Shown piece after piece: positions 1 through 64,000 of a stretch of 64,000 nucleotides of DNA (positions within the stretch are counted from its first letter, which is position 1; every line of letters starts with the position of its first letter). This DNA comes from Bilabrum cf. latius (Eukaryota). The stretch spans positions 868,001 to 932,000 of the forward strand of contig OZ237747.1 in the NCBI GenBank assembly GCA_965178125.1, read 5' to 3'. The notes beneath the pieces were generated by a model. The model had not been told where the DNA came from. It worked only from the letters and a program-made list of their open reading frames with translations, and searched no databases. Both the position numbers and the translations under genes were made by a program.

Positions 1-2134
1 CAGGTGCTTCACTAGATGCTGCCGAGAGCAACTGGATCAAGCCAAGACGCACAAGCTGCTTTTTAGCACTGTGCTTGAATCGCTTCTAGCTCAAACAGCA
101 TTGAATGAGCTTCAAGGCTGCTCCCCAGACACGCTGACCATGATCGCTGCCGCCTTCTGGGGGCAGTCTGCGTAGCAGTCGAACGAGACTACGGAGTCCT
201 CCTGAGGCAGCAAACGTTCCGAAGCAAACGGAGTTTGCTTCCAGCAGCTTTGTAGCAGCACCAATCGACCTAATACACACTTCGTGCGATTTAGCTTCAA
301 ACTGCTGCACCAAGGCCAGAACAAGGCCAGACTTCCAGGCGTCCTTTGGTCGCACTTGAGGAGCCCGTGGCCCGGCGATGAGGCACAATACTGACTTGAC
401 TTCGTGCTGGGAGCCCGATCGAAGATGGTCGCGCAGCTGTGTGTGCACAAGGGCAGCTCTGGTGGACTGCAGAACCACATCGGACATCGGCAAGCTTCGC
501 AGCGCGCACATTGCGAGCTCCGCTCCGGCACCCTGCAGGTTGTCCAACATGGAATACACTAGGGTTGGGCAGCGCTCGAGGCGCTGCAGCAGCAGCCTCT
601 TGAAGATCCGCGACAGGTGAGTCGCCGCCTGAGGCGCAGGATATGCAAGCCTGCCTTCACGTCGTAGTCGCTGCTCCGTGCTGTCTGTGATCCAGACTAG
701 CTCCATGGCAGTCACGATGTGCCAGCCGCCGAACCTGTTGATGCCTCGGAGCAGATCCAGGACGTCGTTTGATGCCTCGACTGACCCTAGATAGGCTCGT
801 TCTACTTGCTGCGCGACAATGCTCATGACAGGGGCCGGAAGACGCACAGTGTGACTCCTGAGTCTGCCGCTCATAACGAAAGCCATCTTCAGCTGGTGCG
901 CTGCTTCGTGCACGGTCATCCTCTCCTTCGGGTCGCCGCGCAGCAGAGCGGTCACCACATTGACAATCTCATCTACCTGACAGTACAGCGCGGACCCGCC
1001 CGCCAGGTGAACGGGACCGTCCTCGATTGCCTGCTGGATGGTGCCGTACGTGAGCGCAGTGCCGTCGTGAAGGGCTGCGGGGTATGCCTCCCCGAACGGA
1101 TGCATTCCGCCGGTGACCAGCATATGGAGGAGAATGCCGAGCGACCACGACGCCTGCTTGCCGTACGGAATGCACATGTCATCGCTGCTTGACTGCGCCA
1201 TGCGCCATGCGTCCAGCACCTCGGGTGCCAGCATCGAGTGGTCTGGCCCTGCCGAGTCCCCTCCGCCGACCAGGTCTCTGTACTTGACCGCATTGAAGCT
1301 GGCCTCGATCGCAGCTTTTGTGTGAGGCGAGGTCGATGGTGAGGACGAATCGCCTGCCCTCACGAGGGGGAGCTCCACCATCAATGCGTCTTCCATCTTC
1401 GCGATGACTGGGGTACCCGCCGCAGCCTAGAGATCGTTCGCCTCCCCTCGGTTCATGTCCAGCAGCACGCTCTGCATGCCCAGGTTGCGGTGCACCACCC
1501 CGCGATCGAACATCGTCTACACTGTTTGGGCCAGGCTGGAAGCCCAGTGCATCAGCTGCTCGCTGGTGGGCGGGCATGTCGAGCTCCTGGCGGCAGCTGC
1601 AATGGTCGGGGCAACTGGCACCAGCCCCATGACATGGGCGAGTCGGACGCCGTCTGGCTCCGCAGCGCCACTGGCAGCGGATGGAGCTGCATCGTGTGAC
1701 TGTTGTGTCCAGCTTGGAGGGTATGCAAAGCCGGCCGGGATGGCCAGGTGTTCCACATTGGCGTCTTTAGGCAGCCTGTCGAGGATGTCGACCTTCCGCT
1801 TGCGCTTGTTGAGCTAGGACTGAGATGCAGCTGAGCTCGGATCCCATAGTATGCTTAGTTGAAGCTCACACGCGCTGTGTAGTTGCGCGGGGTTTTCGTC
1901 GCTCCCAAAAGCTGCACCAATCTCGTCAGGAACACGGTAGCACCTGAACGACAGCTCGGCGCCTTGCTTGGACAGGATCAACTTGCCTCTCTGCGGACAT
2001 CTGCAGCTATTGCAAGCATACTACACTACATCATCGGGCGGTTGCATGGCTGCAGCTGCGCCTGATGCGCTGCTACTGAAGACAGCAAACTTGCCCGACG
2101 ATGAATATTTTGTCTCAGCCTCCATTCCTTCCAT
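1..2134 (-). CDS. Protein kinase-fold (probable pseudokinase) with C-terminal helical/ARM-like region; 3' end runs off the window
   Basis: ORFs 1517..1756 and 86..1396 share a frame and join across TAGs. The joined protein reads RGVVHRNLGMQSVLL...APEVL...SWSLGILLHMLVTGGMHPF...LLRGDPKERMTVHEA (kinase subdomains VIb-XI). The ATG at 2134 follows an upstream in-frame TAA. The frame continues past TAG 86-88 to the window edge. Confidence 0.7.
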
Positions 2135-2340
2135 TGCGAGAGAGTCAGTGCAGTATGCCTACGATATGTGCCTCAATTATAATTCAATGCTAGCTGGCGG
2201 GTGCTGAACTAATTGTGCGAGCAGAAAGACACTCTGTGACTGTGTCCTCACAACTATTCCCAGCCAGAAACTTGAGTGGTTCGCTCAGCAAATGGAACTT
2301 TCGGTTGTTGGGACGCGCCCTCTGTGGGCGCCGGTTCCGA

Positions 2341-4206
2341 TTACACCGCTTTGAAGGCTCTCAGCATCGACTCATACCGACTCAAGAACGCCCGTGCCTT
2401 GTCTCTCTTCTTGGCAAACGCCGCAGATGCCGCCCCCTGCCGCACCAGCGGCGCCGGGAGTGCTGCCTCTGCCCCTGCTCCTGGCTCTTTTTGTGGCCCC
2501 GGGGACCCACATCCCGAAAAAGCACGCAAAGAACTCTTGCAACCAGCCCCATCACTATGATGCACACCCGCTAACCCCGCGATGCCCCGAAGCCGATCGA
2601 GGGCCCCCCGCACCTCCTTCCCCTCCGGCTCAGCGCCATGCCGGAGGAGAGCTGCCACGCATTGTTCGTGCTACCAGTCGATTGCCGCCTTGAGCGGGAG
2701 CAGCCTGCGAGCTGGAGCACTCAATCTATCCGTTGGGTCCGATATGTCCGTTGAGCGCGCCCCTTCCGGGTCAGCGCCCACGTCAAGGAGCAGCTGGAGA
2801 GACTCTGTATGCCCCGCGCTAGCAGCGAGCGCGGCCGCAGTTGATCCCGAAGAATCCACGGCGTCGACAAGGCCTCGCATTTCGCCGAATAAATCTCTGT
2901 GCGCGAGGCCAGTCGTCACTACTTCCGGTCGAGTCCCACTGGTTGAACGAGTGCCCGTGCTGCCACTTGGATCGCCCTAGCCGGCGGGGTCTCCAGATGA
3001 GGCCGATGACAGCTGTGGCGCACCGGTTGAGTCCTGATGACTCGGTGGTGTATTTGGTTTATCAGGCACACCTTCACACTCGCCGCATGACAGCATCCAT
3101 TGCAGCACGCGCGATTGGCCTTCCACTGCGGCTGAATGCAGGGGGATTCGACCGAGTGTGTCGCGGGCATCTGCAGTGCAATGCATCAGAGAACAACTAC
3201 TGTAGCTGCTGTAATCCACCCACAAGCCGGCTACAATTCGTCGTGTTCCAGTAGAGTGTTCATCAATCGCGCCGGACCCTGATGCAGCAGGCCCAGGGCG
3301 CGCCCCAGAGCGGCATAGAGCGGAGTCGGATTCCACCAGCGACCGAGCGGCCGAATGAGCACAGCTGCTCAATACTGGCGAGTTGCTGTCCTCAGCTGCA
3401 GCTTGGCTTCCAGTGATGCCGCCGAACGCGTTGCCTGGCTTTGCTCTGTGCCCAGCACCCCCAATTGGCCGTGTTTCAAGCATCCACTTCAGCACGCCCA
3501 GCTGGCCTGCCCCCGCTGCCTCATGCGCGATAGTCAATGCACCCTTGTCTCCCAAACACACAGGGGCTCCGGCTTCGTGCAACAGCCTCAGCGACTCTAC
3601 GTGACCTCTGGCAGCTGCTGCTTGCCAAGCGCCCCGCAGGTTGTCACTGAGGGCGCATGGATCCGCCCCGTGCGACAGCAGTGTCGCAATGCATGCATGG
3701 TTTGGTGTGCGAGCGGCAAGGTGTAAAGGGGTCGCGCCCTCTGCATTCGGATCGGAGGCGCTCGCACCAGCTCGCAGGAGCAGCTCTGCGACCTCAGCGT
3801 GACCTTCCACACATGCGTACAGCAGCGGCCGCCAGCCATTCGGCCGCCGTGCATCAACCCTTGCACCCTAGTTAAGAAGCTGCACACAACAATCGATAGA
3901 TCCAACTGTTGCGGCTTCCATGAGTGGTGTCTTTAGAAGGTTGTCCCTGCAGTCCAGGTACACTGCCGATAGCGCCTCAGAGGCACAAACTTGCCTTACG
4001 GCGCCGACGTCACCCAGCCTTGCTGCCTCGTGTAAGATAGATCGCCCGCTTGCAGCATCAACGAGAAGGATGTCAGACGGGAAATCTAGCGGCGGTAGAG
4101 CTATGGAGCAGTCAAGTGTAGATCGCTTTGCAAGCAAACTGAATGCCTTCTTGCATAATCTCTTCGCCTGCTTCTTCGAAATCTTTGTATCCTACTATAG
4201 GTCCAT
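2341..4206 (-). CDS. Ankyrin repeat protein
   Basis: ORFs 3868..4137, 2977..3810, 2671..2919 and 2341..2658 share a frame and are joined by TAG. Ankyrin motifs include KTPLMEAA, GATPLHLAA and GRIPLHSAA. It starts M-D-L-TAG-TAG-D-T-K at 4206 and ends TAA at 2341-2343. Confidence 0.85.
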
Positions 4207-4342
4207 GTAATACAACAAACTCGCAGTCAAACTCGGAAAATTATGACAAAGTCGACAGTGAGGGAAGCAGTACAGTGCAGTGCAGCAAATGCATTGCACT
4301 GCTCTGCAAATGATCTGGACAGGTGCGCGTCATTAGAAGACG

Positions 4343-5438
4343 ATGGCCAAGTCTGACAAAGGTTCTAGCAAATCATCGGCAAGCGAGTCGAAAGGGACAT
4401 CATTTGTGGAAGGGTTCCAGAGATGGGCAGTGGCTGCGGTCAGTGCGAGCCTCGCTGAGACTGTCACATTCCCACTGGACACGACCAAGATTCGGTAAGT
4501 GTATCTGGAAAAAGTCAAGATTCGTAACACGCGCGCACCAATCTGGTCATTGTCGGGTCATTGTTGCTTTCGGATCTTTGGAATCACAATTGTGCGAGAG
4601 TCATTGTCTTCGCAGGCTACAGCTGCAAGGAGAGTTGGGCAAGGGCCTAGACGGCGGCAAGTTCGATGCCAAGCAGAGCCGTGGCATGTGGGCCACAGCA
4701 GCAGGGATTGCTCGGTAGGAGGGTATCATGTCGCTGTATGGTGGCGTGGAAGCAGCAGTCATTCGATAGGCAGTCTATGGTGGGATCGGCGTCGGGCTGT
4801 ACCAGCCTGTCAGAAAGCTCATCATGGGCAACCAAGACCCGAAGAGTGCATCCCTCCCATTGAGAATTCTCTGCGGCGGAATCACTGGCGGATTGGGACA
4901 GCTAATTGCACAGCCCACGGACACGGTTAAGATCAGGGTGCAGGCCGACGGCCGCCTCAAGCTTCAGGGCAAGCCGCCTAGGTACAACGGGGTGTTTGAC
5001 GCATTCAAGCGCATCGTGGCAGAAGAGGGCATCGCTGGGTACTACCGAGGACTTGGACCCTCTGTGTCGAGGGCGGCAGTGATCAACGGCTGCGGCATTG
5101 CTAGCTACGATCACACCAAGTAGCTGACCCTCAAGATCACAGGACAGAAAGAAGGCTTGTTCGCCCGGATCGTGGGCAGTCTGATCAGCGGCCTAGTCAG
5201 TGCACTGGTAAGCTGTCCCTTTGACGTTGTGAAGACAAGGCTGGCAAATCAGCCGTAGGGTGCAGGCAGGCTGTATTCCGGCATGCTGGATTGCGGGATC
5301 AAGACGATCAGGGCGGAGGGTGTGATGTCGCTGTACAAAGGATTCACGCCAGCGTACGCTAGGCTAGCACCGTGGCAGCTCGTTTTCTTCCTGGTATTCG
5401 AGCAGGTCAACCAGATGGTGTTTGGCAAGATGCTGTGA
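4343..5438 (+). CDS. Mitochondrial carrier (SLC25), uncoupling protein/dicarboxylate-carrier-like; exons 4343-4494 and 4616-5438
   Basis: Three Px[DE]xxKxR signatures (PLDTTKIR, PTDTVKIR, PFDVVKTR) and EGxxxxY[KRG]G motifs. Four in-frame TAGs (4716, 4767, 5121, 5256). Ends TGA 5436-5438. Confidence 0.93.
4495..4615 (+). other. Spliceosomal intron (121 bp)
   Basis: GTAAGT...TTCGCAG; removal restores the conserved TKIR|LQLQGE of the carrier. Confidence 0.9.
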
Positions 5439-5577: not shown

Positions 5578-8500
5578 TTACAGATCTGCAAGGCCAAAGC
5601 TGTCATGCACAGCCCTGAATTTGAGACTGTTGTGCTCCAGACCCACTGCATGGCCTGCACGGTCAACTGCACCCGTAGCCGTTGCTGATGCTGGCAGCAG
5701 CCTGCTCTCCTCGTCCTGGGCTACCACTCCACCCCCAGTCGCCGACACCAAGTCTGCTAGCTCCTACACGTCGCCTGCCAGCACATCCAGTCCGCCGAGT
5801 GCCCCAGCCTCCCTCCGGTCGATGCTGGCTACCGCTTTGTCAGTCATCGCTTTGTGTTCGTGCCCGCGGCCACTGCCTACTGCCTCTCCGTATTCATCGA
5901 TGCGCGCGCCCCCCGGATCATCCTGTCCCAACGAAAATCCATCCCTATCAAGGCCCTCTCGCGGGCGTGCCGCGGTCATGCGATCTAGCCGAAGCAGCAG
6001 GGCCCGTAGCATGATCCTCCTAGTAGCCGTCAGTCCTTCGCGCCCTCTCTATCCCGCAGCCCGGCCAGCCTTGATAGCAGCAGACAAGATTTCCTTGCGG
6101 CTCGCATCTACGATTGCTTCGACTGTATCCGGTTCGACCGCTCTGGCAACGTGCACTTCAGCACATGCAAGCGCCCCAGCCAGCTGGAAGAGACAAAGGC
6201 GGCAGCAGGCCTGGAATGCACGCTGCAAGATGCCCTGCATCCACACGAGGTCGTGAGGATCTGAACTTTCCGCCTCGTGCCCCTGCATCACTACCCGGAA
6301 GGATTCCAACACTGCAAGCAGAGCACCTCCTACTGCCACTTGTGCTTTGTCCTCTGCGTCCAAGCCATCGCTTGAGGTCGCTTTCAAAACTGCTTTGCCC
6401 AGCACGACAGCAGCCGACTCTACGTCTCTGGAAAAAAGAGCTGCGCCATTCGCAGCCTCGATCGCTTCTTCTCGGTAATTTGGCAATGACCGGCACGCGA
6501 CTAGGTTCCAGAGGTCAGCAAGGCACTCAATTGTAGCCTGCTTGGGATCACCCTGCGACCATCCCGCCATTACCCTGGATCTATCAGCAGGGCTAGCTCC
6601 AGCCAGCGAGCTCCCTTCATCACACCACGCAATAGTAGCGGGAAGGGATTCCTCATCTCTACCAATGTGCTCGCCTTCGATGAGCTTGATTCCATCGGCG
6701 AGCAGATGGTCGACAGTGGTATCTACCGCCTCGCGCCAAGCAGAACGCCCATACGAGACTATGCTGCGGACCTGCCGCAGCAGCAACACTGGATGGACAC
6801 TTACCAGCGATGCTTTGAGGTCGCGTATGGCGTGCTAGGCGGCATCCAGTCCGATAGTGCCCTTGGACTGGTGTTGGGCGATCCGCCACACCGTCGGCCG
6901 GCCATCCCTGGTGGTGCCAAACACTGCAACATGCCCGTGCATTTTTGGTTCCTGCGGCACCCATCGAAGGACAGGTTGCCTTTCAGTTTGCTCAATCTCG
7001 CTTCTGGCTGCCTCCACTGGAGTCTAAGGCAAATCACCGCTCGAGTACGCCCCTTGGTCGGCGTCGTGCATGTGCGCTGTGGGCGAGCCCAGTGCAGAGG
7101 ACGCGTCAATCAAATGCTCCACTTTGAGCGGCTGCTCGTACCGTGACTGCTAGAGGTGGATCACAGCATGTCCACCAACAGACTGGGAATGCATTCTGAA
7201 CTGCACCATGCGGTCATGCGCTGAGATAAAGCTATCAGCCAAGACTGGCTGGGTGCAGATGTTCCGTGCCGCTGCTATGTCACATGCAACTACTGGCCTC
7301 GTGGCCACCGCTTGCAAAGCACTTGCAGCGGCCAGTTTTGCGCGCCGATCAAATAGCTCAGCGGTTTCTGCCTCGTCTGCCGCGCCACGCCCGGCAGGAC
7401 CAGCAAGCTTCACAGATGGTGAGTCGAGTGCCAGCTCAAGTTGCTCCTGGAAAGCGTGCTTTTGAGAGTCCAGTCCTATATCTACGCTTGCCGGCAGGAC
7501 TGAGCTCCATCTCAAGTCCCAGCGTAGCCTAACAATCCAGCCGGTCGGAAACAGTACGAGGGTATCCTGCGGCCCGTCGTGCGCCGCAACGAGAGCAGGT
7601 GCGCGGTGCACAGACCCAGCACCTTCACCGGCTCCAGAACCACTAGAAGCCGAGCCGCTTGCACCTCCGTGGCCCAGTAATCCAAGCGTATCTGCAATGT
7701 GGTCGAAAGCGGACACAGCAACGTTGTCAAGATCTTCAGCAAGCCCACCACCCTTGCTCGAAGCTCGCAGCGCACCAAGAGCCGCAATGTCAGACAAGAG
7801 GGGTGCACGATACTCCCAAGCAGCCCGAATGTACTCGCTTGAAGACCCAAGGGGGATGCGCAGGACCTAACATCCTGGACCCATCACAAGGACGCAGTGG
7901 CAAGGATTGACGCGGTCACCACCACGCAGGTTCAGCTCAGGCCAAGGGGCGACAAAGTCGCCAGGGCTGTGTCCGGAGTGCTCCTGCGTCCAAGGCAGCC
8001 GCAGCCGAGAGAGGTGACCAGGCGCTTCGAGACCTACCCACCGAGCACCAAATATCCCGCGCACCATGCTTGCCGCCCGCCGAATGGCAGATGCTTCGCT
8101 CCTGCCTGCAGCTACGCAATGCAGGACAGCCCGCACCCCCTCTTGCAAAGAAATGAATGCAGAGTCGCGACAATGAGCTGCCATCCGCTCCATCAGCTTA
8201 TCCTTGCTTCTTGTTGCTGCATTAGAGTCGCCCTAATCGTCAGCTGTGAAAGCGTCTTGCCCAGCTGCGCGAGCCAGTGCCAGCACGAACGAGCACCGAG
8301 CGCTGTCCGAGTGGAATGCAAGCAAGATGCTTGCCTCAATCGGCGGTGCGGAAGTGCTCAATTCCGAATGAAGCAGCCCCTAGGCGCGGGCTTCATCAGC
8401 AGTGGCGGGGCCATGGGATACCTGCTCTTCCTTGGCGGCTCTCGGACCGACGGTCACGACTGTATCAGGCGTTGGCTCCCTGCCGATGCGGCCGGCGCGA

Positions 8501-11001: not shown

Positions 11002-11167
11002 GAGATGCCCGACCCCGTTCGTGACTCGGTTGCCTCACCTCATCCCTCCGACACCAGCTCTTCGACCACCCGACGCAGCTTGCTGCTGATGGACAATATT
11101 GCATCCAGCAGTACATGCTCATGGTGGTCCCAACTCTGCCCTAGCAACAGCAGCAGTGTTTCCTTTC

Positions 11168-14100: not shown

Positions 14101-14495
14101 TTCCAAGCTGTCGCGCCATACGCATTCCTGTTTCCAGAGATCTAGCCAGCGGCTGAGAATGCCTAGAATCGTTCGAGTGGCTGCGCGCGCAATGCAAACT
14201 AAAACAATCAAATAGTTCACAGCAATGCAAACACGATAGCCGGGCTTGCGTATCATCGGGGACATGGTGCCCGGCGTGTTCTCGTCTCGGATTCTTCTCA
14301 CCCAAGAACGGCAATTTTCCTCGGGTGGAACTAGGCCATCGGCAGGCGAGCCTCAAACCACGCAACAATAAGAACGCTCAGCAGAATTCTTGTGATATGC
14401 CATGTTGCGTGACCCGCCGATCCGAGTGATCGTCGCAGGGACGGAAGCGCGTGTGTGGGCGTGGCGCCTGGCACCTTTCCGAGGGTGGCGTGCAT
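11168..14495 (-). CDS. FG-GAP (integrin-alpha-like) repeat surface protein with Ser/Thr/Pro stalk and multipass C-terminal membrane region; contains one in-frame TAA
   Basis: Six ~61-aa repeats (KISDTQGGFTG...FG...GDL[DN]GDGVVDMAVGA...G[AS]VWVLFL), a PSVTASTTAS stalk and several hydrophobic segments. Fragments 13442..14071, 12467..13162, 12137..12370, 11633..12094 and 11168..11599 share a frame; ends TGA. A hydrophobic leader lies on a predicted first exon. Start codon uncertain. Confidence 0.75.
12580..12812 (-). repeat. Coding minisatellites (36-bp and 30-bp units) encoding a mucin-like Thr/Ser/Pro stalk
   Basis: Plus-strand units ggtgctggccgtcgttgatgctgtaaccgatggtgt (x3) and ggggctggccgtcgtagagctggatggcgt (x3). 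Confidence 0.85.
12860..14060 (-). repeat. Six tandem ~180-bp FG-GAP coding repeats
   Basis: Near-identical nucleotide blocks such as gtgaagccgccctgcgtgtccgatatct and cccacagccatgtccaccaccccgtctcc recur at ~180-bp spacing. Confidence 0.85.
14181..14301 (-). other. Predicted spliceosomal intron (121 bp)
   Basis: GTGAGA...GCGCAG on the minus strand; the phase-2 join links the hydrophobic leader (ILLSVLIVAW) to the FG-GAP frame. Confidence 0.55.
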
Positions 14496-20819: not shown

Positions 20820-21695
20820 ACGTCCACGCCGGGATACAGTGTTGGTCTACACCAAGCTTATGCATGCAGCGTCGTTGTCTTCTTTGTTAATCCTAACGCC
20901 GTATGGGATTTGGTGTTGATGTCAGAGTGGGGGCGCGGGAACGTCTCGTTGGGTTCCGCTGGCGGTCGCAACCCGGAGGTGCGACCAAGCCAACGGATTG
21001 CTTTGCGATGACGCGCATACCCTCTCTGTGCTCAGGAGAGGGGCGGAGATTGGGTAATTTGTACCCACCCTCTCAACCTCCTCCTCCTCGTCGGAGTAGT
21101 GCACGTGCTCTTCCCAGCCCCGGTCAGTCCGGTCAAGGGTCGCGCACAGGCACAGCTTTATTTTGCCATGTCTGATTGTTTACGAGACTAGGTTGCGCGT
21201 ACACTCTGGCATCATCTACGTTCTCAGCAAGATGAGTGTAGTTGTTTCTTTTGCTCTTTTGGCCAGTGCGGGCCCCAAATTAGCAGAAAAGGTTTGGCGA
21301 TGGCGCGTAGAGCCTTGTGCTACCGCGATCTTGCCCCACGTGCTACCAGTAGATCGTAGCAGTCTGATTCCGGTTTCGTCCACGCGAGCAATCCGAATGG
21401 GTGGAGTCTACCAATCATCATTTAAAAGCAATACAATAACATGGTGGCAATCGTATTCGTGAGAAATAGCCTGTGTTTCATCGATTCAATTGCTATTGCG
21501 TCATTGCAAAGCCCGCATAGCTGGTAGACCTCGACAGGCTCCGTGCCTGCCAGTGCACGCGTGGCCAAACCGCCAACAAGGTCGTTGCTCGCGCCCCTGG
21601 GAAGTCGGCAGTTGCGCAAACACTTGTATCCCAGTCAACAATCAAGTATTTGACTGTAAAGTAGATTTTATGCTACGAGTCATCGATTTTCGTAG

Positions 21696-31192: not shown

Positions 31193-31468
31193 TCGCGTTG
31201 CGCGCTTGAGACGTGAGAAGGTGGGCAGAGGCTTTTGCAAGCTGTACCTATCCAAGTTCTGATTGTTACAATATTTACAGAGTTGCTTTATCAGGCCTGG
31301 CTGGCTTGGAGTTTTAAAAGTTCCCCGCTAGGTTCCTTGTGGTTCATTTTGTTCGTTCGGCAAGTCTGATATCCGTTGGTCGCACCACCGTTAGCGTACG
31401 CCTCCATCCCTTGCCATTCGGTGCATTTTGCAAGATTTTGTATCATATCGAGAGATTGCCTGAGGTTG

Positions 31469-54400: not shown

Positions 54401-57400
54401 TTGCGACAGTGCGCAGCACGGATGCTACGTTACCGGCCGTCGTCTGCGGACCGCAGTTGGTCACTACGACGGGGAGCATGAGGGTCCTTCCGAGGTCCTT
54501 CACCGTCTCAGTCTTTCCAGTCCCGGCGGGTCCTGCAGGGGCACTACCGAGGCCTAGGAGCACGGCTTGCGAAAACGTGAGGTAGGCGCGGTCTGTCAAC
54601 GGAGTCACCACTAGTCGAGGGCAGGCACCGTAGAATTCGCAGCCCAGTCCCATGGAGAGACCTGCGATCTGCAACTTGAACGATCCTTCGCATCCAGTTC
54701 CGAGTGCTTCGCCCCCGTCACCATCCGACCCACGATCATGGCCAGCATGCCGGCCGCTATTGCCTTGGGCCTCGGTATCAGGGTACATTCGCAGCTGGCT
54801 CTGCCACTACCACATGCGGGTGCTAGCTGGTACTTGCGATTCGGAAGAGTCAGAGGTAGCTAGCTTGCCTAGAGCCTACGCTGGATCTGCAAGGCCGTCT
54901 GGAGGAGATACTTCGCTGCTAGACGCGGAAGCTGAGCTTATTCCCTGAACCGCTCGCATGATTCCTTCCGTGACTTCGAGCCAATGCACGTCTAGCGTGA
55001 TCTGTAGAGCAAGCTTGCGCCTGTCTGACTTCTTAAGCGTACTTTTTCTTACCGACTGCACCAGCACATCGAGGCCTCCTCGAATGGCTTCAATGCAGTC
55101 ATGCATCGGCTTCGGGCTGCCCTAGTCTGTGGTAGCGAGCGCCGTCTCCACTGCGTTGGTCCAAACGGCGTGTGACGCAGCCAATACCGACTGTGCGCCG
55201 TGGCTTGCAACCCAGTCGCCCCGGGCTGACAAGTCTCCACTCTCTGCCCAGGGATGGGCGGCTTCCAACGCCGTTTCGCAGGCGCTGGCAAGTTCATTAC
55301 GCATGTGGTATTCTGACGAAGCCAGCCAAGCTTCCAACGGACTACCAGTGGTCAAAGACGGATCGCTCGCAGAAGAAGAATTGAACATCAGAATCTCTGA
55401 GTCCGGGGACTGCATGCCGGTCAGCCTGTGGATGTGCATCTCATCTCCATCGGCAGACCTCGGTACTTCGCCTTCATCAGGTTCTATCTTTTCCACGAGC
55501 AGCTTAGAGAGACCTGGGAAGCACCACCGAGCAAACTCCGAGGCGAGCGGCAGAGCATGCCCGCAGGCAAGCAGCTTCAGCAGCTACGAATCGGGCAGGA
55601 AGCAGAGCCTGGGTGACTCTGCTCGCCTCTCTTCCAGGTACGCCCGCAAAGCAGCTTGGCACTCCTCAAGTGTAGCAAGGAGCGATTCCAGTCTGTCTAG
55701 TCGCCCTTGCCCGGCACAGCACCGCACCGCCACGGGATCGCGTGAGCAATCAATCACGTACGACTTGTACTCGTTGTCAACGACCGTAAACTCCTGCGCG
55801 GCTTCGGGAAGCGCGTCAGCAACGGTCGATACTTTGCCCTCGCCCTGAGAAGAAGGGCTGAAAACACCTACCATGGAGGCCCAAAGCTGTTGCACGCGGA
55901 CCCACACCTCGATCACGTTGCCGATCGAAGCCAGTTGCTCGAACAGGCTTTCAATCGGTTCGCGGAACGGCGCCGCGTGTGCTTTCTGAGCCTGCATGGC
56001 TCCAAGCTCTGACAAATCGTCCTCAGCTTTGTCTCGAACCGTCTCCGACGAAACGAGGATCCACACGGCGTCGGCGCTGATATCTTGCAGATCCGAGCCG
56101 TCATCAGCTGCAGGCTTGTTCGATTTATCGATGCCACCACCGGTAGCAATACTCCCCAACTCGTCTGCAGACACGCTAAGCAGCTTGAGGGGAGCGGTGC
56201 TCCAATACTCCTGTATGGCAGACAGCCTTCTCTCGATGCGTATCTCCTTCTTCGCTCCGTCCACGATGCCGAGGGCCTGGGTGGAGAAAGAGTGCAGCCG
56301 AAGCTGGAGCACATCTCCTAGGCGCAGATTCTTCCTCATCGTGTCGTCGGCCAGTATCGCATACGTACGGTTGGCAGCTATATCGACGGATCCGTCTCCG
56401 ACAACACTAGCGTGTGCGCTGCCCATGCGCTGCAGACCGCTCACCATAGAACTACCTCCGCCTCCCAGACCAACAACGTGAGACCCGAACTCGTCAAGGC
56501 CAGCAATCGACCGTTGGCCGCCAGCATCAGACGGCTCCTGGAGCGCATAACATATCACATCGCCCAGTATTCCATCGGATGATAGCTTGAAGTCGACCAT
56601 CGCGAGCTGACCCAGGGAAGCCTGCGCCCGCTAGACTAGCTGCTGCCAATGGCGCTGCTTGATGGCCTCACCACGCAGATCGCTGCAGATCGGCAGCGAT
56701 TTCTGCATGAGATTCACCATCTTGTCCACGCTCTTTTTCACGGGCCATCTCTTGGATGACGCAGGGAGCTTCCTCAGAATCTGCGAGGTCTGCTTCAGGG
56801 TCATCATGCTGGTACCGAAATCGAAGGTCTCGAAGGCCTGGTCGGCCCAAGACGAGTACTGGTTCGCCAACGAGACGAGTGAGTCCCAGCAAAGCTTGTT
56901 TCCTCTCAGCTGAGCGGCACAATCGTTCAATTGTTCGGCTCCTATCGATGCGAGCTCCTCTGCCGAAATGAGACGCCCGGCACCAGCTTCTTCACTGCCG
57001 ACAGTACCGGTATCATCCTGTGGCTGCCTTGGCCCCCCACCATTGCCCTTTCTCTCCCCGGACTGCCCATCATCCTGCAGTACAGCGTCAAAGAGGCGTT
57101 TCTTCGCACTGAGGTCCTTGGCCTCTTCAAGCATCGATCTTAGATCTTCGTTCAAAGAGCCAAGCCGGCTGTACGCCCAGTCCGCGGCAAAACTGACAGA
57201 TTCAGGTGCAAGCAGCTCTTCGATACCGATTGAGTCCTGCGTATCGAAGCTGTTCCCAGTCACGCCAATGATGTCACCGATATCGTCCAGGCTAGCTCCG
57301 CCCTGCCCGAGCCCGACGCTTGCTGAGCTGACGCTGCCGTCCTGGCCTGCACCCGCGGCTCGTTCATCTTCGCTGTCAGCCTACGCCTTAGTTCGCATCG

Positions 57401-60400
57401 CAACGGCAAGGGCGGGACCAAGACTATGCGGTATTTCTCGGTCAAGCCGCACCTTAAATCTTACCACAGTTTCCTTGAATGCCATCACTTCAGCTCGCAA
57501 GCTTCCTAGCAGCTACTGTGATCGGGACTGCAGCCTCTTTCCGACCGCGGTCCCGGCATCGGTCACCAGAGTCCACTTCGAAGCCAGGTCGTTCAGCAGG
57601 TCAATGATGGGAGCCCTCATGGGATCCTGGGACACGAGCTGGAGGAGCTCAGCCTGTGCGACGCCGGAGCTGCCGAGAGCCAGCTGGCTCGCGTCGCTTC
57701 CAGGCTTCTGTTGCGCATCTCCAGCATCGCCAGCACTGTCATCTGCACCGTCATCAATCGCATCAACGACGCCATCGGTGGCACTATCTACCATGTTGCG
57801 GGCCATTGCAGCAATGGAAGGCAGCAGAGACGGCGTCAGTGGGATTTCTACCGACTCCAGCTCGAGCCAATCTGCGGCACCGTGGGATGCAAGCAGCTGC
57901 GAGAAATCAACCAGGGATTGGCATGCCCGTTGCACGGGGGCAGCAAGGCTGCGGATGTCTCGCACGGCCGCAAGCACCCGAATGAGTGCAGTGCGGTGCC
58001 TTTGCGTTTCAAAGGCAAGGGCTGCCGCTGCAAACTGACCCGTGGTGGTCCCCCCCTCGGCAAACTCAGCTACCTCCCGCTCCAGAATATGCTAGGCGAT
58101 ACCAGCTCCAACACGTTCCAGTACCACCCCATGCGATACGAGCACACCAAGTTCTGCAGTATCAGCTGCAATAGCCGGCTGAGACCAGCCGAGGGACTAG
58201 AACTCGTCGGCCGCTCCACCCAGCTCGCCTTCCTGCGCCGACTAGCCCTCCATGCCAGCATCTTGCCCAGCACCTTGTAGACCTTCCTCTGGATTTTCAC
58301 GTTCGTCGTCCGACGAATCATCGTCAAGCGCCCCCTCATTCACGCCAAACAGGCTCCAGCCGTGCGCCTTAAAGGAAGCGTCGACAGTCGCGGCGAATGC
58401 CTCAAACCAGGCAAGCCGTCTCAAAATGAAGGCCTAGCCTACAGCCAGCAGAGCAGCCTTTTGCTGCGAGAGACGCTCCACAATGCCTTGTCGCATTTCT
58501 CCAAGCTCTACTTGCACGATGCCGACGGGAATGTTGGCCGCCATGTCCTTGACTGACTTGAGCTGCCTTTCGATGCGAATGAACTCGTCATTGAAACCCG
58601 GCATGTCTGGCTCCAGTAATAGATTACCGCACACGTAGTCAAAGCTGCGCTAGGCTGCCTGCATCTGAGCCACGGCTTCCTGGGACGATGCCTTGCCAAG
58701 CAGTTTGGACGAAAGAGGCTCAGCTGGCAGCCACTGGGTGCCCTCTGCCAAAATTGCATGTTGTCCCCCGGAATCAGCAAGCTGCTCGGCTGGCATCTCT
58801 GATGAAATTACGAAATCCATTCCCTCCAGGGTCGCCGCTTCTTTCTCCAAATGAGATGCTGCAAGAGCAGGAAGGCTGTGGAAGGCCACAGCACCAGGCA
58901 GCAGCGAGGCAACGGTGGCCTTGCTAAACCTCCCACCGCCGCTTTGCTAGAACGTGAGACTGGTTGCCATCTCTGCAGCGTTATCTACCGTTTGCTAAAC
59001 ATCTGACCGAAGCGATCGAAGCTCCTCATCAAGCGATTTTGGCCTGCTGTCCAGGCTCGTCATTTGTCGTTTCGGCTGCGGTATTGAGACCCCGCCGGAA
59101 TCCTGCTTGAGTCCGAGCTGCGACCGGACCTGGGCCCCTTCGCGCAGGCGAACCGACAGGACGACCACAGAGCTTGCGCCTACATGCTTCGTCTTCAGTG
59201 GCAGCGGAAGCATGCGATCGATTCCGCTGGATCCACCGATCGACCTCGCCGTTCCAGGTAGTGCCTAGGCCTGCTGCTGGTGCTGAGCCTGCCTGGCAAA
59301 CCCAACTGTGCCGCTCTTGCGCAATGGTGACGATGCAGCCCCTGCACCTCCTCCAAAGCGAACGCTTTTCGATCTCTTTCCCTTCGATTTACCGCCCTTC
59401 TTTGACCCCTACCTTCTGCCATCCTGGCGTTCGGGCTCGGCAGGCTGAGCAGCAGCAGGCACGAAGCCAAGGCGAACCACAGCTGCAGCGTACTCTCCGA
59501 TAGACACGGACCAAGCCCCTGAGAACGCCAAGCAGGACCTGCGGATATCTTCTAGTCGCCTCGCGAGAGCTGTGTGCGAACGCTTTACAGCAGCCTGCGC
59601 TGCAAACACCTCCGGAGACGTCTGTACATCGCGAGTGAAATTACCTGCCAGAGCAGCTCTCCGCGCCATCATCGGGTCTGTCACATGTGGAACGACAGAT
59701 GCGATACGCATCACGTGCTCCACCCACGACTCGACGTACTACCGCAACGACTTGCGCGAAGAGTCAGGCTTCTGGGTAGACAGAGAATACTTCAACGCCT
59801 CGTGCTCTTCAGAACCCCGGCCCTGAAGGGTGGGCAAGGCTGCAGCCGCGTTGGCGACGACTGAAGCGCACTCGTCCGCCGACACCCTGGACACGAACGA
59901 TTCTGCTGCATAATCAACGGCCGAATCAAAGTCTAGGGTCGGGGTAAACTGCGCAAATGACAGGGCGATAACTTCTGCCATGTCCTCGGCGGAGGAGCCG
60001 CGCTGCACGTCATGCACAGAGTGGCGAGATCGCAGCTGCTGCCTGGTCTATTCGATAAACTTGCTGCGCATGGTTCGGTCCTTGGGCAGCGATTTCACGT
60101 CGGAATCAGCCGCCCTGAGAATGGCCTTTGCAACTCCAGTTGCCACGCTCGAGTAGCGTTCCTGATTCTGCAGCAGAGCCACACGAATCATCGCGGCTGA
60201 AGCGGACCGCCCTTGGCTCCACTGGCTCTGGCCGTAGTCGGAATCCGACCAAGCCGCAGAGCCGCTGCGACCCTCCCTGCCAGCTTCAATCTGGGCCTCT
60301 GCAGACGCGACGGCCCCCTTCACATCGCGCTCGGCGGTGAACCCAAGCAGCAGTTTCTGCAAATCGCCCAGGTGCCTAACAATGGCACGCACTACGCCAG

Positions 60401-63400
60401 AGAACACAAGAGCATCGACATAGCTGCAGAAATCGTGCCACGCCGGCGGGGCTCGAGCAAGCTTCAGCTCCTTCGGAAGTTCACCGAGGACACGCTGCAC
60501 CACGCGGGAACCGTCTGCAATTACCTGCAGTCGCTGCTGCCACAAGCGCTGCAGCCCGCCGTCGAGCTGCTGGAAGCTAGTAGGGAAAGCTTGTTCGTGA
60601 GTCCCATCATCACTCTACGGAAATCCATCATCCCCGTCGCCAGCCTGCGGCCGCCCCAGCTCAACTTGCAGCATGCCATCGTCGTCGAATGGGAAGAAGG
60701 GCTCATCGTGCCACCTGGATACGATCCCAGCAATCTTTGTGAGCCCACTAATGAGCACGCGCTGCCTATCTTCAACCTGTTTCGCAGCTGCTTCGGCCTC
60801 TGCCAAGAAAGCGTCTACACCAGGGCTATTCCAAGTGAGTGAGGTTAGCCCGGGAGTAATGGCGGCTTCAAAAAGTGCAACCGATTGCTCCATCAGCGGT
60901 GCAACCACCTGGGGAGTCTCGTGTCGAATTCGGTTGGCTGTGTCTGCAACCAGGCTTAGCCTGGCTTGGTACTTGCGGACCTGCTGGTCTCTGCGATAGA
61001 CCCCCGCCGCCGTGCGAGGGATATCAAGACCGAGCTGCAGCAGATATCGGCTTTCCCGTAATAGGGCCTCCAGCCCTGCGTGTAGATTGACGTGGAGCCG
61101 GTCGCTCGGGGCACTGGACTCGGGTGCAACAGACGCGCCTCTGGCTGTTCCGGGGGGTCCTCGCGCACTGCGTGCGAGCGATGTGGCTTCATCTAAGGCG
61201 TCTTCCATCGTGGAGGTGGCCAAGGCAATGCCGAGCAAGCCATCCGAAGGCAGAGCATCCATGCCAGCATCTCCGAAGCGCTATCTCCAAACCAGCAGTC
61301 GCTTCTCTAGCTGCTCCTGAACGCTCTCCTCAAGGCTGAGCGCCCAAGCCCTTGCCGTGTCTTTCTGCAGCTTGGTCAGTTTCCTCGACAGATCAGCGTG
61401 ATCTGCAAGCGCGTTCTGCATCTCGTCCTGGTGGACACTAGCGGGAATGAGCCCTTTCAGTGGCAGCACCAGCACGTCTACGCGCTGCTGCAAGGTCTAG
61501 CTCCAGACGATCCGGCCGGCTGTGGGTGGCATATTCGCGGGAATCACCACGGCGTAGCTGTCCTCACCGGGGGCCTGCTTGAGACCCCCTTCCACAGCGG
61601 ATGACGCCGCTGCAGACACGACACCAGATCGGCTCCTCACAACCTCCTTCTAGCCTGCGATTGGCACATCCCTTGCTGGTGCGTCCTTGCCGGGTACGGA
61701 CCCTGTGGCGAGCCCGATCCGCAGCTCGGCGGCGGTTCGCCTGACCTCTTCATGAACGTTCTCGATGAGGTTCTTCAGCGGGGCCCTGGCCTCTTTGAGG
61801 ACCTCTTCGCGATGCAGCATGGGCGAGAAGAGGTCAACCAGCCGGATCTACGACTGGAGGCTGTCCTGCGCAGACGCGAGGGCCAGGCGCAGCACCGATC
61901 CGAGCCTGCGACCCAGATCCGCTACGGAGGCCCGAAACCCAGTGAGGCTGATCCGCCAGGCGTCGTCCATATCGATATCCATAGGATCATACGGCAGCTG
62001 CTACAGCGAGTTGAGAGCCTGCATGAAGTCAGAGTGGATGGTAGACAGCGAAGCACCGAGGACTCGGCCCCGCGCTCCGCCGGTGCTCATCGTTCGGATG
62101 GGCGAGAACTGGCTGACGGTGTCGGCCACTTCGCGGAGCTCCCTTGCGCGCTGTGCCATTGCATCCAGGCGCGCGAACAGCGCAGTTGCTTGGAATCGCC
62201 ACGCAGCATCAGGCACCTCAAACACGGACCTTGCCTTGTAGTCAAAGTACACAGACCGGAAGCGCGCACAGAGCCCGAGGACCTGTTCCATCGCCTCTTG
62301 CGCCTTGGTCGCTTCCTAATCCCCCAGCAGCTGCACGCCGCGTGTCGCCCTGGTGCAGACTCGGATGATAGCGTTGCTGATCTGCCGGAAGAGTACCACC
62401 ACGCGAAGCGGTCGGCGGTAGGTTCCCTCGCCGTACTTCCATGCCAGCTGCACGATGTGCACGATGGGGCGGAGCAACTCCTCCGCCTGGCCAGTGCTGC
62501 TGGCGGCCTCAAGTTGCTCGGCCCAGGGCCGCAGCGGCTCCAGCAGCTTGGCAATCTTACGAGCGGTGTCACGGGACCTGATCAGCTCAGCGCAGAGCCG
62601 TCCAAACGAGGACTCGTAGGCAGATCTCGCCTTGGCGAGCACCTACAGGACCCGCCTCGCCCTCGGGCTGGCTAGTTGCTCTACGATCGCGTCGAGCCTC
62701 ACGACCTGACCCGCCCAGAAATCCAGCTCGAAGGACGGTCCTGGGTGCCTGCGACGGTCACAGCACGGTGGCAGCCCCACGTCCAGCATGGGGGCGCCTT
62801 CAGGAACGTTCTCTCCCTCGGGCTCCCTTCGGAGCACCCTGTGAATGGCCCTCGTCCAAGACAGCACCACCTGCTCCAGCACGTGGACGATCTGCCGGCG
62901 TCTCGACTTGCTCGACTTCTTGCCTGGCTGCGTGGCACTGCTCGCAGTGGAACCCATCGATGGCACGGGGTTGCGGGCAGGTTCCATCCCGCGAGACGGG
63001 CCGCCAAAGGCACCCGCGCTGCCGTGGATGGGGGGAAGCGTAGGCACCCGGGAGGAAGTCGACGGTGACGGTGCTGGCTGCCGGTTGCCCGCCCATGCGC
63101 CACCGCGGACAGCCTCGCTGAACGTGGGGCTGGCTGCAGAAGCCATAGACACAGACTCGCTGCCGTCACCGCCGGCCTCTCCGGTCGCTAGATCGAAGAG
63201 AACGTCCGGGGAATCCGGCATGGACAGAGGCTCCCTGCCCTGCGTGCGGCCTAGCGCAGTGTCCAGGGATTGCGCAGCCACTTCCGCCTGTCTCACCACC
63301 TGCGCCCCTAGTGCCGTGCTCCAGGTGCTCCTGTTCTTGCGATTGCGCAGAAGGGGCAAATACACCCGGCTGGTGACGAGCTATAGCTGCTGCAGGGCGG

Positions 63401-64000
63401 CCACGCCTGCCAGACCTCCGCCCATCTAAGCCGCCGATTCCCAAGCCTGCCGAGCAACCCTGCTGCCCCTCTGGGCCGTACTGCGAGGACCCCCGCGCGC
63501 TGATTCGCTGCCCCAGCTGCCCACCGGTGCCCGGGCAGGAGGGAGGGGGCCGCTCGTAGACCCACGAGACCCGCCATTCGGAGTCCAATGCGAGCTAGAC
63601 CCTGCACCTGCCCCAGCCCCTGCCCCAGCATCGGCCCGGCCAGCACCGGTGCCGCCTTGGAGGGCGAGGGCAAGGGGATGCATCGAAGCATTACCACCAA
63701 GAGGATCGCCGTCACTTGCAGCCGCTTCTCTAGCGCTAGCGAGCGGACTATCGGGACGTACGCTGCCCGCCACAGAGCTGCTCGCTCCGTCCCGCCTTGC
63801 ACTGCTGGCAGGTGCTCCAGCTCTGAGTCCCTCTTCCGCTGCATCTATGGCCTGGGCACTGGCCAGCGAGCCGACAACGACCTCTACCTCAACGTCCTCT
63901 TCTGTGAGAGGCCCTGCATGCAGTTTATACACGTATACGCACCTTGCAGGTGGTGCATCTGCCGGTACGGATCCTCGGCTAGCGTGCGATCCAGGCGCAC
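42498..64000 (-). CDS. Axonemal dynein heavy chain, outer-arm beta-like, very long and divergent; 5' end beyond the window
   Basis: One frame of ~7167 codons interrupted only by TAG. It contains DHC_N1 (FELDFW, NMPPTAGRIVW), linker (QRHWQQL, PRLCFL), AAA1 (GPAGTGKTETVKDLG, CFDEFNRI, FITMNPGYAGR, YDWGLRA), AAA2 (GEPSCGKT, WIEDLNSVMDD), AAA3 (DDLHLPAADKYGTQ), AAA4 (GPSGCGKRS), stalk and AAA6 (WLVLENIHL). Ends TGA 42498-42500. Confidence 0.95.

What the first reader, a model, noticed from the sequence alone, without database searches (positions are those of the whole stretch)
1..64000. Variant nuclear genetic code: TAG is a sense codon while TAA and TGA remain stops
Seen: 13 of 14 genes carry in-frame TAGs (more than 50 in the dynein frame alone), and neighbouring fragments never change frame. 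I found only one internal TAA and no internal TGA in coding frames. All 13 visible gene ends are TAA (2341, 5578, 23658, 28166, 31190, 33935, 34065) or TGA (5436, 11168, 17473, 20817, 23959, 42498). Known: eukaryotic UAA and UAG are almost always reassigned together. Decoupled UAG-only codes are rare; examples are the fornicate Iotanema (Gln), a rhizarian (Leu) and some ciliates. Inference: this GC-rich flagellate, possibly a stramenopile, may be an independent, possibly unreported origin. It would need a tRNA-CUA and an eRF1 that ignores UAG; neither is in this window.
Basis: partly seen in the sequence, partly recalled or inferred. Interest (0 to 1): 0.97.

Follow-up and report, generated by a model that had tools for sequence, protein, structure and literature searches.

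The report
Nuclear code: TAG read as glutamine
This GC-rich eukaryotic DNA only makes sense if TAG codes for glutamine while TAA and TGA still end genes, a rare split of the two "UAR" stop codons seen so far in only a handful of protist lineages.

Summary
With TAG as a stop the longest frame is 641 codons. With TAG as sense there are frames of 7166, 2681, 1818 and 1209 codons, while reading TAA as sense changes nothing. After the first ATG, 148 TAGs lie in frame, in 12 of 14 long frames. All frames end in TAA or TGA, and the only internal TAA is at 13256.

Three lines of evidence say TAG means glutamine:
- Near-identical relatives carry Q at 4 of 4 covered sites.
- Orthologues in a metagenome contig pair TAG with Q at 8 of 16 well-aligned sites.
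- A masked-codon likelihood test ranks Q first, with controls correct for 56 of 60 codons.

Contigs from two DNA-like and two RNA-like public runs keep T-A-G. The metagenome relative L001 uses the same code, so more than one organism shares it.

No tRNA(CUA) or eRF1 could be examined, because no genome is held. The organism could not be placed: its best named hits are only 30–58% identical.

The code itself is known from Iotanema and some ciliates. This is probably a further lineage, and seven full-text searches found no report that fits it.

The parts
42498..63998 (-). Dynein heavy chain gene, at least 7166 codons (5' end runs off the window), with 62 in-frame TAGs; ends in TGA at 42498-42500
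   Evidence: for the frame and TAG count. It has the P-loop/AAA dynein architecture and dynein heavy chains as hits, at no more than 32% identity.
34065..42110 (-). TIG/IPT-domain membrane protein gene, 2681-codon frame, 14 TAGs, ends in TAA
   Evidence: Its orthologue lies in metagenome locus L001 at 49% identity.
31370..33937 (+). Coiled-coil protein gene, 6 TAGs, ends in TAA
28877..31192 (+). TPR (TPR_12) protein gene, 8 TAGs, four of them within 17 codons (30206-30253), followed by a 57-nt tandem repeat; the frame ends in TAA
   Evidence: The stretch after the last TAG is not coding-like in this frame.
23959..27588 (-). LRR_6 protein gene, 9 TAGs, ends in TGA
21660..23660 (+). Gene with no known family, 3 TAGs after the first ATG, ends in TAA
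18207..20819 (+). Membrane protein gene with no known family, 5 TAGs, ends in TGA; a 99-nt GT..AG intron (18127-18225) lies at its 5' end
   Evidence: for the frame; the joint appears in an X6 contig.
15550..17475 (+). Type I protein arginine methyltransferase gene, no TAG in the coding sequence (one TAG at 15547 in the 5' leader), ends in TGA
   Evidence: The orthologue in L001 has TAG at two sites where this gene has CAG.
11168..14377 (-). FG-GAP repeat membrane protein gene, 9 TAGs. It is split by an in-frame TAA at 13256-13258. A 121-nt intron (14181-14301) lies at its 5' end. It ends in TGA.
5578..11034 (-). Gene with no known family, 1818-codon frame, 18 TAGs, ends in TAA
   Evidence: An X6 contig covering 5574-10812 is identical and covers all 18 TAGs.
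4314..5438 (+). Mitochondrial carrier (UCP-like) gene, 4 TAGs (4716, 4767, 5121, 5256), ends in TGA
   Evidence: X8 contigs cover all 4 TAGs without a difference.
2341..4329 (-). Ankyrin-repeat protein gene, 5 TAGs, ends in TAA
2..2176 (-). Kinase-like protein gene (3' end runs off the window), 5 TAGs after the first ATG

Best explanation
The window is nuclear DNA of a GC-rich, intron-poor eukaryote that has a dynein heavy chain gene. Its cytoplasmic translation reads UAG as glutamine and keeps UAA and UGA as the only terminators. This is the Iotanema-type code, formally NCBI table 15.

Shown here:
- TAG is frequent in frame, at 16% of all glutamine codons.
- It stands where relatives have Gln.
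- It is kept in RNA-like contigs.
- A second, environmental relative uses it in the same way.

Inferred from established knowledge (Panek et al. 2017, PMC5304391, section 9 read):
- Decoding needs a tRNA-Gln with anticodon CUA. That is one base away from tRNA-Gln(CUG) and cannot pair with UAA.
- It also needs a glutaminyl-tRNA synthetase that accepts this tRNA.
- It needs an eRF1 whose N-domain no longer recognises the G of UAG but still binds UAA and UGA.
For: 1. Specificity. Only TAG-as-sense opens the frames. Codons in frames of 500 or more: 2319 standard, 21076 with TAG sense, 2319 with TAA sense, 4274 with TGA sense.

2. Close relatives. Carrier P0002 (97% identical) and P0018 (85%) carry Q at both covered TAG sites. 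Dynein fragments P0129 (99%) and P0134 (96%) carry Q at one covered site each. That is 4 of 4 sites and 6 of 6 pairings.

3. Orthologue pairs between the window and L001 (TIG protein 49% identical, PRMT 65%). Of 16 well-aligned TAG sites, 8 pair with Q, 2 with R, and 1 each with K, I, E and S; the last two were not printed. The Q fraction is 0.50 for TAG, against 0.33 for CAG, 0.21 for CAA, 0.08 for GAG and 0.07 for GAA.

4. Distant homologues. Across 31 TAG columns Q ranks first (0.083 per column) and E second (0.055), a profile like CAG and CAA. The same test with each sense codon masked decodes 56 of 60 correctly.

5. TAA is not sense. From the CAA:CAG ratio of 213:563, about 56 in-frame TAA would be expected beside 148 TAG; at most 1 is seen. 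TAA ends 7 frames and TGA ends 6 or 7.

6. No other letter at TAG. Listed contig pieces with 0 differences cover the 43 TAG codons of window 1-20000 as follows: 42 (X1), 43 (X2), 32 (X6) and 7 (X8). X6 carries two GT..AG spliced joints in gene orientation.

7. A second organism. L001 has a 2449-codon frame with 17 TAGs and no TAA or TGA. It is the only 1 of 80 PRMT-bearing metagenome loci whose longest frame doubles with TAG as sense.

8. Sequence after the last TAG is coding-like in 13 of 14 genes. The three gene ends with a homology-supported C-terminus (carrier, PRMT, dynein) use TGA.
Against: - No tRNA gene lies in the window or in L001, and no eRF1 could be looked at, so the mechanism is inferred.
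- There is no peptide evidence.
- The distant-homologue test separates Q from E only narrowly.
- In a 57%-identical dynein fragment the two covered sites are S and R.
- Half of the orthologue pairings are not Q, as expected at 49% identity.
- The tool labels X6 'RNA? (probably DNA)' and X8 'RNA?', and no listed holder is on record as RNA. That X6 is RNA rests on my reading of its spliced joints.
- Contigs drop rare variants, so partial editing cannot be excluded.
- The TPR gene's stretch after its last TAG is not coding-like, and a real in-frame TAA exists at 13256. A few exceptions to a clean code are therefore possible.
- Frame ends are TAA or TGA by construction, so whether TAG ever terminates is only weakly tested.
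Confidence: 0.9

Rival explanations
1. TAG is ambiguous. It is read as Gln inside genes but also ends some genes depending on context, as stop codons do in Condylostoma, karyorelicts, Blastocrithidia and Amoebophrya sp. ex K. veneficum.
For: Frame ends are TAA or TGA by construction, so a terminating TAG followed by a chance-open stretch would be missed. The TPR gene has four TAGs within 17 codons just after its TPR domain, and the 312 codons after the last TAG are not coding-like in that frame.
Against: In 13 of 14 genes the stretch after the last TAG has coding-like codon usage. The three C-termini anchored by homology end in TGA. TAG density in frame (0.76%) is close to its off-frame density, which shows no avoidance. 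The TPR tail is dominated by a 57-nt tandem repeat that distorts codon statistics.
Confidence: 0.06
2. TAG is sense but codes for another residue, such as glutamate (as in peritrichs or the ciliate PL0344), leucine (as in the rhizarian exLh), or lysine, tyrosine or serine.
For: Glutamate is the second-best residue in the distant-homologue test (0.055 against 0.083 per column), and E is the commonest residue summed over the 31 columns.
Against: Relatives at 85-99% identity carry Q at 4 of 4 sites. Orthologue pairs give 8 Q against 1 E in 16. The TAG column profile matches the masked CAG and CAA controls, not GAG or GAA. Leu, Tyr, Ser and Lys score lower.
Confidence: 0.03
3. Both UAR codons are reassigned to Gln (the common table-6 type), and TAA is merely rare because the genome is GC-rich.
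For: One in-frame TAA (13256-13258) sits at a repeat position where another repeat has CAA, and the repeats continue in frame after it. It is present in contigs of two runs.
Against: About 56 in-frame TAA would be expected from the CAA:CAG ratio; at most 1 is seen. Reading TAA as sense lengthens no frame. TAA closes 7 of the long frames.
Confidence: 0.01
4. There is no code change. The TAGs are assembly or sequencing errors, sites edited to CAG in RNA, or decay in pseudogenes.
For: Only contigs could be laid, not raw reads, and contigs drop minority variants.
Against: Contigs from four studies agree with the window at the covered TAG codons, including RNA-like runs. Decay would also introduce TAA, TGA and frameshifts, yet a 7166-codon frame stays open. 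A separate environmental organism shows the same pattern.
Confidence: 0.005

Closest known systems
Iotanema spirale (Fornicata) nuclear code: UAG = Gln, UAA and UGA = stop (Panek et al. 2017, PMC5304391; abstract and section 9 read)
   Same: The codon table is the same: only UAG is reassigned, to glutamine, and UAA is kept as a major terminator. The predicted mechanism is the same: a tRNA-Gln(CUA) plus an altered eRF1.
   Different: Iotanema is an anaerobic metamonad known from a transcriptome. This organism has a UCP-like mitochondrial carrier, 59% GC and long gene-dense contigs, and no hit tied it to fornicates. Its eRF1, which in Iotanema carries T32G in the GTS motif, could not be examined here.
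Ciliates with UAG = Gln only: Protocruzia tuzeti and two phyllopharyngean lineages (McGowan et al. 2024, PMC11687900; discussion passages read)
   Same: The reassignment is the same, and it arose repeatedly and recently in those ciliates.
   Different: Nothing here looks like a ciliate macronuclear genome. GC is 59% and public contigs that include this locus reach over 200 kb. The dynein and PRMT have no close ciliate hits. That ciliate macronuclear genomes are AT-rich is recalled, not tested.
UAR = Gln codes (NCBI table 6: many ciliates, hexamitin diplomonads, Ulvophyceae, Streblomastix, Amoeboaphelidium)
   Same: A stop codon becomes glutamine through a tRNA one base away from a normal tRNA-Gln.
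   Different: In those codes TAA is also sense. Here TAA terminates.
Amoebophrya sp. ex Karlodinium veneficum: all three stops read contextually (PMC12005148; abstract and passages read)
   Same: In-frame stop codons occur in essential genes, including dynein heavy chains, and are kept in transcripts. UAG is probably Gln. The carrier tree gives a weak lead to a dinoflagellate sequence.
   Different: There TAA and TGA also occur in frame, and about half of the genes have none. Here no TGA and at most one TAA occur in about 19800 codons, and nearly every long gene has TAG.
Rhizarian exLh (UAG = Leu) and Scotinosphaera (UAG = Ser)
   Same: UAG is uncoupled from UAA.
   Different: The amino acid differs. 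Leu and Ser score poorly here.

Membership tests
UAG=Gln, UAA/UGA=stop nuclear code (Iotanema type, NCBI table 15) | UAG is frequent in frame in conserved protein-coding genes | tested here: met
   148 TAGs after the first ATG in 12 of 14 long frames. Frames open only with TAG as sense.
UAG=Gln, UAA/UGA=stop nuclear code (Iotanema type, NCBI table 15) | UAG stands for glutamine | tested here: met
   4 of 4 sites are Q in relatives at 85-99% identity. 8 of 16 orthologue pairings are Q, against 0.07-0.08 for Glu codons. The likelihood test ranks Q first, with 56 of 60 controls correct. No peptide evidence.
UAG=Gln, UAA/UGA=stop nuclear code (Iotanema type, NCBI table 15) | UAA and UGA are kept as terminators and are absent from coding frames | tested here: met
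   No TGA and 1 TAA internal in about 19800 codons, where about 56 TAA would be expected if it were sense. TAA or TGA lie at all frame ends and at 3 homology-anchored C-termini.
UAG=Gln, UAA/UGA=stop nuclear code (Iotanema type, NCBI table 15) | UAG is not used as a terminator | tested here: inconclusive
   The stretch after the last TAG is coding-like in 13 of 14 genes. Only 3 C-termini are anchored by homology, and 14 genes are too few.
UAG=Gln, UAA/UGA=stop nuclear code (Iotanema type, NCBI table 15) | UAG is present in mature mRNA (no editing) | tested here: met
   X6 contigs, with two GT..AG spliced joints, cover 32 of 43 TAG codons, and X8 contigs cover 7 of 43, all with 0 differences. 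Caveats: these are contigs, not reads, and the RNA status of both runs is a guess by the tool.
UAG=Gln, UAA/UGA=stop nuclear code (Iotanema type, NCBI table 15) | A tRNA-Gln with anticodon CUA | not testable with these tools
   No tRNA in the window or in L001. No genome is held.
UAG=Gln, UAA/UGA=stop nuclear code (Iotanema type, NCBI table 15) | An eRF1 N-domain (GTS, NIKS, YxCxxxF) altered so that UAG is ignored | not testable with these tools
   eRF1 is not in the window.
UAR=Gln code (NCBI table 6) | TAA is also read as Gln | tested here: not met
   reading TAA as sense lengthens no frame. TAA ends 7 frames.
Ambiguous codes in which all stops can be read as sense (Condylostoma, Blastocrithidia, Amoebophrya sp. 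ex K. veneficum) | In-frame UGA and UAA as well as UAG | tested here: not met
   No internal TGA and 1 internal TAA.
UAG=Leu (rhizarian exLh) or UAG=Glu (peritrichs, PL0344) | UAG aligns with Leu or Glu | tested here: not met
   Leu is not among the six best residues and Glu is second to Gln. Close relatives carry Q.

The most novel reading that the evidence does not exclude
This is an independent, so far unreported origin of the UAG-to-glutamine-only code. It would lie in a poorly sampled, aerobic, GC-rich eukaryotic lineage that is neither a ciliate nor a fornicate, and the whole clade would share the code, because a marine or environmental relative only 49-65% identical in protein already has it. 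The in-frame TAA at 13256 (CAA in a sister repeat) would then illustrate the new hazard of such a code. TAG-to-TAA and CAA-to-TAA transitions turn a Gln codon into a stop.
Probability: 0.45. Interest if true: 0.72.

Novelty: new member of a known kind. Interest (0 to 1): 0.62.

Why it matters
UAA and UAG are recognised together by eRF1 and nearly always change meaning together. Cases where only UAG is reassigned are few: a rhizarian, Iotanema, Scotinosphaera and a few ciliates (PMC11687900, PMC5304391). Each new, independent case shows which eRF1 and tRNA changes allow the two codons to be separated, which is also of interest for genetic code engineering in eukaryotes.

This case comes with long genomic contigs and with DNA and RNA-like data in several public runs. 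The predicted tRNA-Gln(CUA) and the eRF1 variant should therefore be directly findable, which was not possible for Iotanema in 2017.

There is also a practical side. Standard-code gene callers cut this organism's proteins into fragments, as the truncated database entries of its relatives show. Its genome and the related metagenome contigs need TAG=Gln for annotation.

Tried and rejected
Tools and data that were not available:
- No whole genome is held for this window, so no genome-wide codon inference, tRNA(CUA) search, eRF1 search or 18S search was possible.
- The first metagenome scan failed because the machine was busy. The scan was run later with the PRMT as query.

Searches that found nothing:
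- tRNA scans of the window and of L001 found none.
- Rfam at gathering thresholds found nothing in the window.
- A recalled 21-nt dinoflagellate spliced-leader motif has 0 matches with up to 3 mismatches.

Sequencing runs: no RNA holder is listed on record. X6 and X8 are called 'RNA?' only as a guess.

Placing the organism failed:
- Carrier: best named hit is Symbiodinium sp. KB8 PUMP1 at 58%, then a Ploeotia vitrea transcriptome sequence at 50%.
- Carrier tree: the careful search did not finish, so a quick tree was used. It groups the window with the Symbiodinium sequence and two unnamed ones at SH-aLRT 85, with no starred clade.
- Dynein: no more than 32% identical to anything. Best named hits are Phytophthora ramorum, Fabomonas and a cercozoan MAG.
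- PRMT: apart from two unnamed relatives (96% and 67%), everything is 47% or less, with high-coverage matches at 40% or less.
- The Atlas gave only generic PRMT clusters.
- The near-identical fragments carry no names.

Literature: seven full-text searches found no report of a UAG=Gln-only code outside Iotanema and ciliates. Supplements were not consulted, and subscription journals are not covered.

Readings rejected:
- Pseudogenes, errors or editing.
- TAA also sense.
- TAG = Glu or Leu.
- Prokaryotic or viral origin, which is rejected because of the spliceosomal introns, dynein and mitochondrial carrier.
Full report
**What is there.** The window is 59% GC. Under the standard code it has no frame longer than 641 codons. 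Read with TAG as sense, it resolves into 14 long genes on both strands, with frames of 7166, 2681, 1818, 1209, 870 and 855 codons and smaller ones. The effect is specific to TAG:

| Reading | Codons in frames of 500 or more |
|---|---|
| Standard code | 2319 |
| TAG as sense | 21076 |
| TAA as sense | 2319 |
| TGA as sense | 4274 |

In 20 shuffles the longest TAA/TGA-free run was 299-564 codons. Off-frame TAA+TGA density is about 2.3% per codon, so a 7166-codon frame free of them is not chance.

The genes are eukaryotic:
- a kinase-like protein
- an ankyrin protein
- a UCP-like mitochondrial carrier
- an FG-GAP membrane protein
- a type I arginine methyltransferase (PRMT)
- an LRR protein
- a TPR protein
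- a coiled-coil protein
- a TIG-domain membrane protein
- a dynein heavy chain of at least 7166 residues
- three proteins with no known family

One public run, X6, holds contigs that skip 18127-18225 (GT..AG, + strand) and 14181-14301 (CT..AC, that is GT..AG on the − strand), each in the orientation of its gene. Spliceosomal introns therefore exist but are rare.

**Checking the observation.**
- The long frames hold 151 in-frame TAGs in 19766 codons, 148 of them after the first ATG. The dynein frame holds 62.
- The PRMT coding sequence has none. Its only TAG (15547) lies just before the ATG at 15550.
The one at 28166 closes only a 93-codon frame.
- The single internal TAA is at 13256-13258. It lies inside the 207-nt FG-GAP repeat array, and the repeats go on in frame after it.

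**What TAG means.** Three lines of evidence, using different relatives, agree on glutamine.

1. Near-identical relatives in public protein sets were cut into pieces by standard-code gene callers. Where they run across one of our TAG sites, they carry Q. Carrier P0002 (97% identical) and P0018 (85%) each have Q at both covered sites. Dynein fragments P0129 (99%) and P0134 (96%) have Q at one site each. That is 4 of 4 sites. A more distant fragment, P0180 (57%), has S and R at two sites.

2. A metagenome contig, L001, carries orthologues of the PRMT (65% identical) and of the TIG protein (49%). At positions where at least 9 of 20 flanking residues are identical, 16 TAG codons in either organism pair with Q 8 times, R twice, and K, I, E and S once each. 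The last two pairings were not printed. The Q fraction is 0.50 for TAG, against 0.33 for CAG (plus 7 of 72 paired with TAG), 0.21 for CAA, 0.08 for GAG, 0.07 for GAA and 0.07 or less for Leu, Ser, Arg, Tyr, Trp and Ala codons.

3. Distant homologues were used for a likelihood test: 272 dynein and 118 carrier sequences. Across 31 TAG columns with at least 10 aligned residues, Q scores best (0.083 per column) and E second (0.055).
   - The same test with each sense codon masked in turn decodes 56 of 60 codons correctly. The misses are ATA and three Val codons, which go to Met or Ile.
   - The TAG profile resembles CAG (Q 0.098, E 0.024) and CAA (Q 0.193, E 0.085), not GAG (E 0.342, Q 0.141).
   - The margin over E in this third test alone is small. 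The first two lines carry the weight.

TAG makes up 148 of 924 glutamine codons, or 16%.

**TAA and TGA stay stops.** From CAA:CAG = 213:563, about 56 in-frame TAA would be expected if TAA shared the meaning of TAG. At most one is seen. The carrier, PRMT and dynein end in TGA where their homologues end, and the L001 PRMT ends in TGA at the same place. Whether TAG ever terminates is less well tested. In 13 of 14 genes the stretch after the last TAG has coding-like codon usage. The exception is the TPR gene, whose tail holds a 57-nt × 8.1 tandem repeat and follows a cluster of four TAGs within 17 codons.

**Not an artefact and not edited.** The stretch 4001-14000 is held by runs from four studies. 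Contigs of four of these runs were laid on 1-20000 and show no other letters, insertions or deletions. The listed pieces cover the 43 coding TAGs in that stretch as follows:

| Run | TAG codons covered, of 43 |
|---|---|
| X1 | 42 |
| X2 | 43 |
| X6 | 32 |
| X8 | 7 |

X1 and X2 also cover the TAA at 13256. I treat X6 as RNA because of its two spliced joints. The tool itself labels it 'RNA? (probably DNA)' and X8 'RNA?', and no holder is on record as RNA. These are contigs, which hide minority variants, so partial editing is not excluded.

**A second organism with the same code.** L001 has a 2449-codon frame with 17 TAGs and no TAA or TGA, and its PRMT has two TAGs where the window has CAG. It is the only 1 of the 80 metagenome loci fetched with the PRMT whose longest frame doubles with TAG as sense. 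None does so with TAA. At least two organisms, divergent at 49-65% protein identity, therefore share the code. The truncated database fragments suggest further relatives at about 60%, 85% and 96-99% identity.

**Mechanism (inferred).** As argued for Iotanema (PMC5304391, section 9):
- A codon read as UAG but not UAA requires anticodon CUA, one change away from tRNA-Gln(CUG).
- Glutaminyl-tRNA synthetase uses the anticodon as an identity element and must tolerate the change.
- eRF1 must lose UAG recognition while keeping UAA and UGA. Iotanema has T32G in the GTS motif.

None of this could be tested. There is no tRNA in the window or in L001, no eRF1, and no genome.

**Who is it?** This is unresolved.
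- The carrier's best named hit is a Symbiodinium sp. KB8 protein (58%). A quick tree groups them weakly, at SH-aLRT 85; the careful search did not finish.
- The dynein is an outlier, with no more than 32% identity to anything. Its best named hits are Phytophthora ramorum, Fabomonas and a cercozoan MAG.
- The PRMT has nothing above 47% identity, and nothing above 40% at high coverage, other than two unnamed relatives.
- A recalled dinoflagellate spliced-leader motif is absent.
- A ciliate macronucleus is unlikely given 59% GC and contigs over 200 kb. That ciliate macronuclear genomes are AT-rich is recalled, not tested.
- An anaerobic fornicate such as Iotanema is unlikely given the UCP-like carrier.

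**Comparison with what is known.** The code table is known from several lineages:
- UAG=Gln with UAA and UGA as stops occurs in Iotanema spirale (PMC5304391, abstract and section 9 read).
- According to the discussion of PMC11687900 (passages read), it also occurs in Protocruzia tuzeti and twice in phyllopharyngean ciliates.
- Other UAG-only changes are Leu (rhizarian exLh, some phyllopharyngeans) and Ser (Scotinosphaera).
- Amoebophrya sp. ex K. veneficum reads all three stops contextually (PMC12005148, passages read). That does not fit here.

Seven full-text searches found no report matching a GC-rich lineage that is neither ciliate nor fornicate. The library lacks most subscription journals, and supplements were not seen.

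**Verdict.** The finding is real and robust, and TAG = Gln. The kind of code is known, so I file it as a new member of a known kind. An independent, unreported origin is plausible but unproven until the organism is placed. Interest is 0.62.

Noticed in passing
window 13256-13258 (- strand): An in-frame TAA lies inside the FG-GAP repeat array ('...VWVLFL*SDGSV...'). The homologous position in the other repeats is CAA, GAC, AAG or CGA, and the repeats and the membrane part continue in frame after it. The TAA is present in contigs of two runs. It could be a recent nonsense change (CAA to TAA), a split gene or rare readthrough.
   Followed up: partly
window about 14686-14985: A short intergenic element of about 300 bases is present in many copies. 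Summed contig depth is 845 against about 15-20 around it in X2, and many contigs in all four runs break here with differing flanks. It has no Rfam match.
   Followed up: no
window 42498-63998 (- strand): The dynein heavy chain is a giant outlier. It is at least 7166 residues, with its N-terminus off the window, against about 4000-5000 for typical ones. It is full of Ala/Ser/Gly-rich inserts and is no more than 32% identical to any database protein, so it fits no standard dynein class by best hits.
   Followed up: partly
window 30206-30922 (+ strand): In the TPR gene, four TAGs fall within 17 codons (30206, 30212, 30239, 30251). They are followed by a 57-nt tandem repeat (8.1 copies, 97% matches, 30464-30922). 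The 312 codons after the last TAG are not coding-like in this frame, and the +1 frame scores slightly better. An unseen intron, a frame change or an early end is possible.
   Followed up: partly
window 18127-18225 (+) and 14181-14301 (-): These are the only two introns seen, 99 and 121 nt, both GT..AG. Both lie near the 5' ends of their genes, upstream of the first in-frame ATG of the long frame, so first exons or leaders are spliced.
   Followed up: partly
L001 1-11407: In the metagenome relative, the TIG-protein gene lies about 2 kb from the PRMT gene and is divergently oriented. In the window the two genes are about 17 kb apart, so gene order is not conserved.
   Followed up: no
window 4314-5438 (+ strand): The carrier frame has its first ATG at 4686, which would cut into the first of the three carrier repeats. 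The true start may lie in an upstream exon or at a non-ATG codon.
   Followed up: no
public protein sets (P0002, P0018, P0129, P0134, P0138, P0128, P0180): Proteins of this organism's relatives are stored as short fragments that begin or end near sites where the window has TAG. This is what a standard-code gene caller would produce, so any annotation of this clade made with the standard code would be fragmented.
   Followed up: partly
L002 and two other loci: Three of the 80 PRMT-bearing metagenome loci double their longest frame when TGA is read as sense. L002, at 72% GC, goes from 1040 to 2022 codons. This may be a mere effect of very high GC and was not examined.
   Followed up: no
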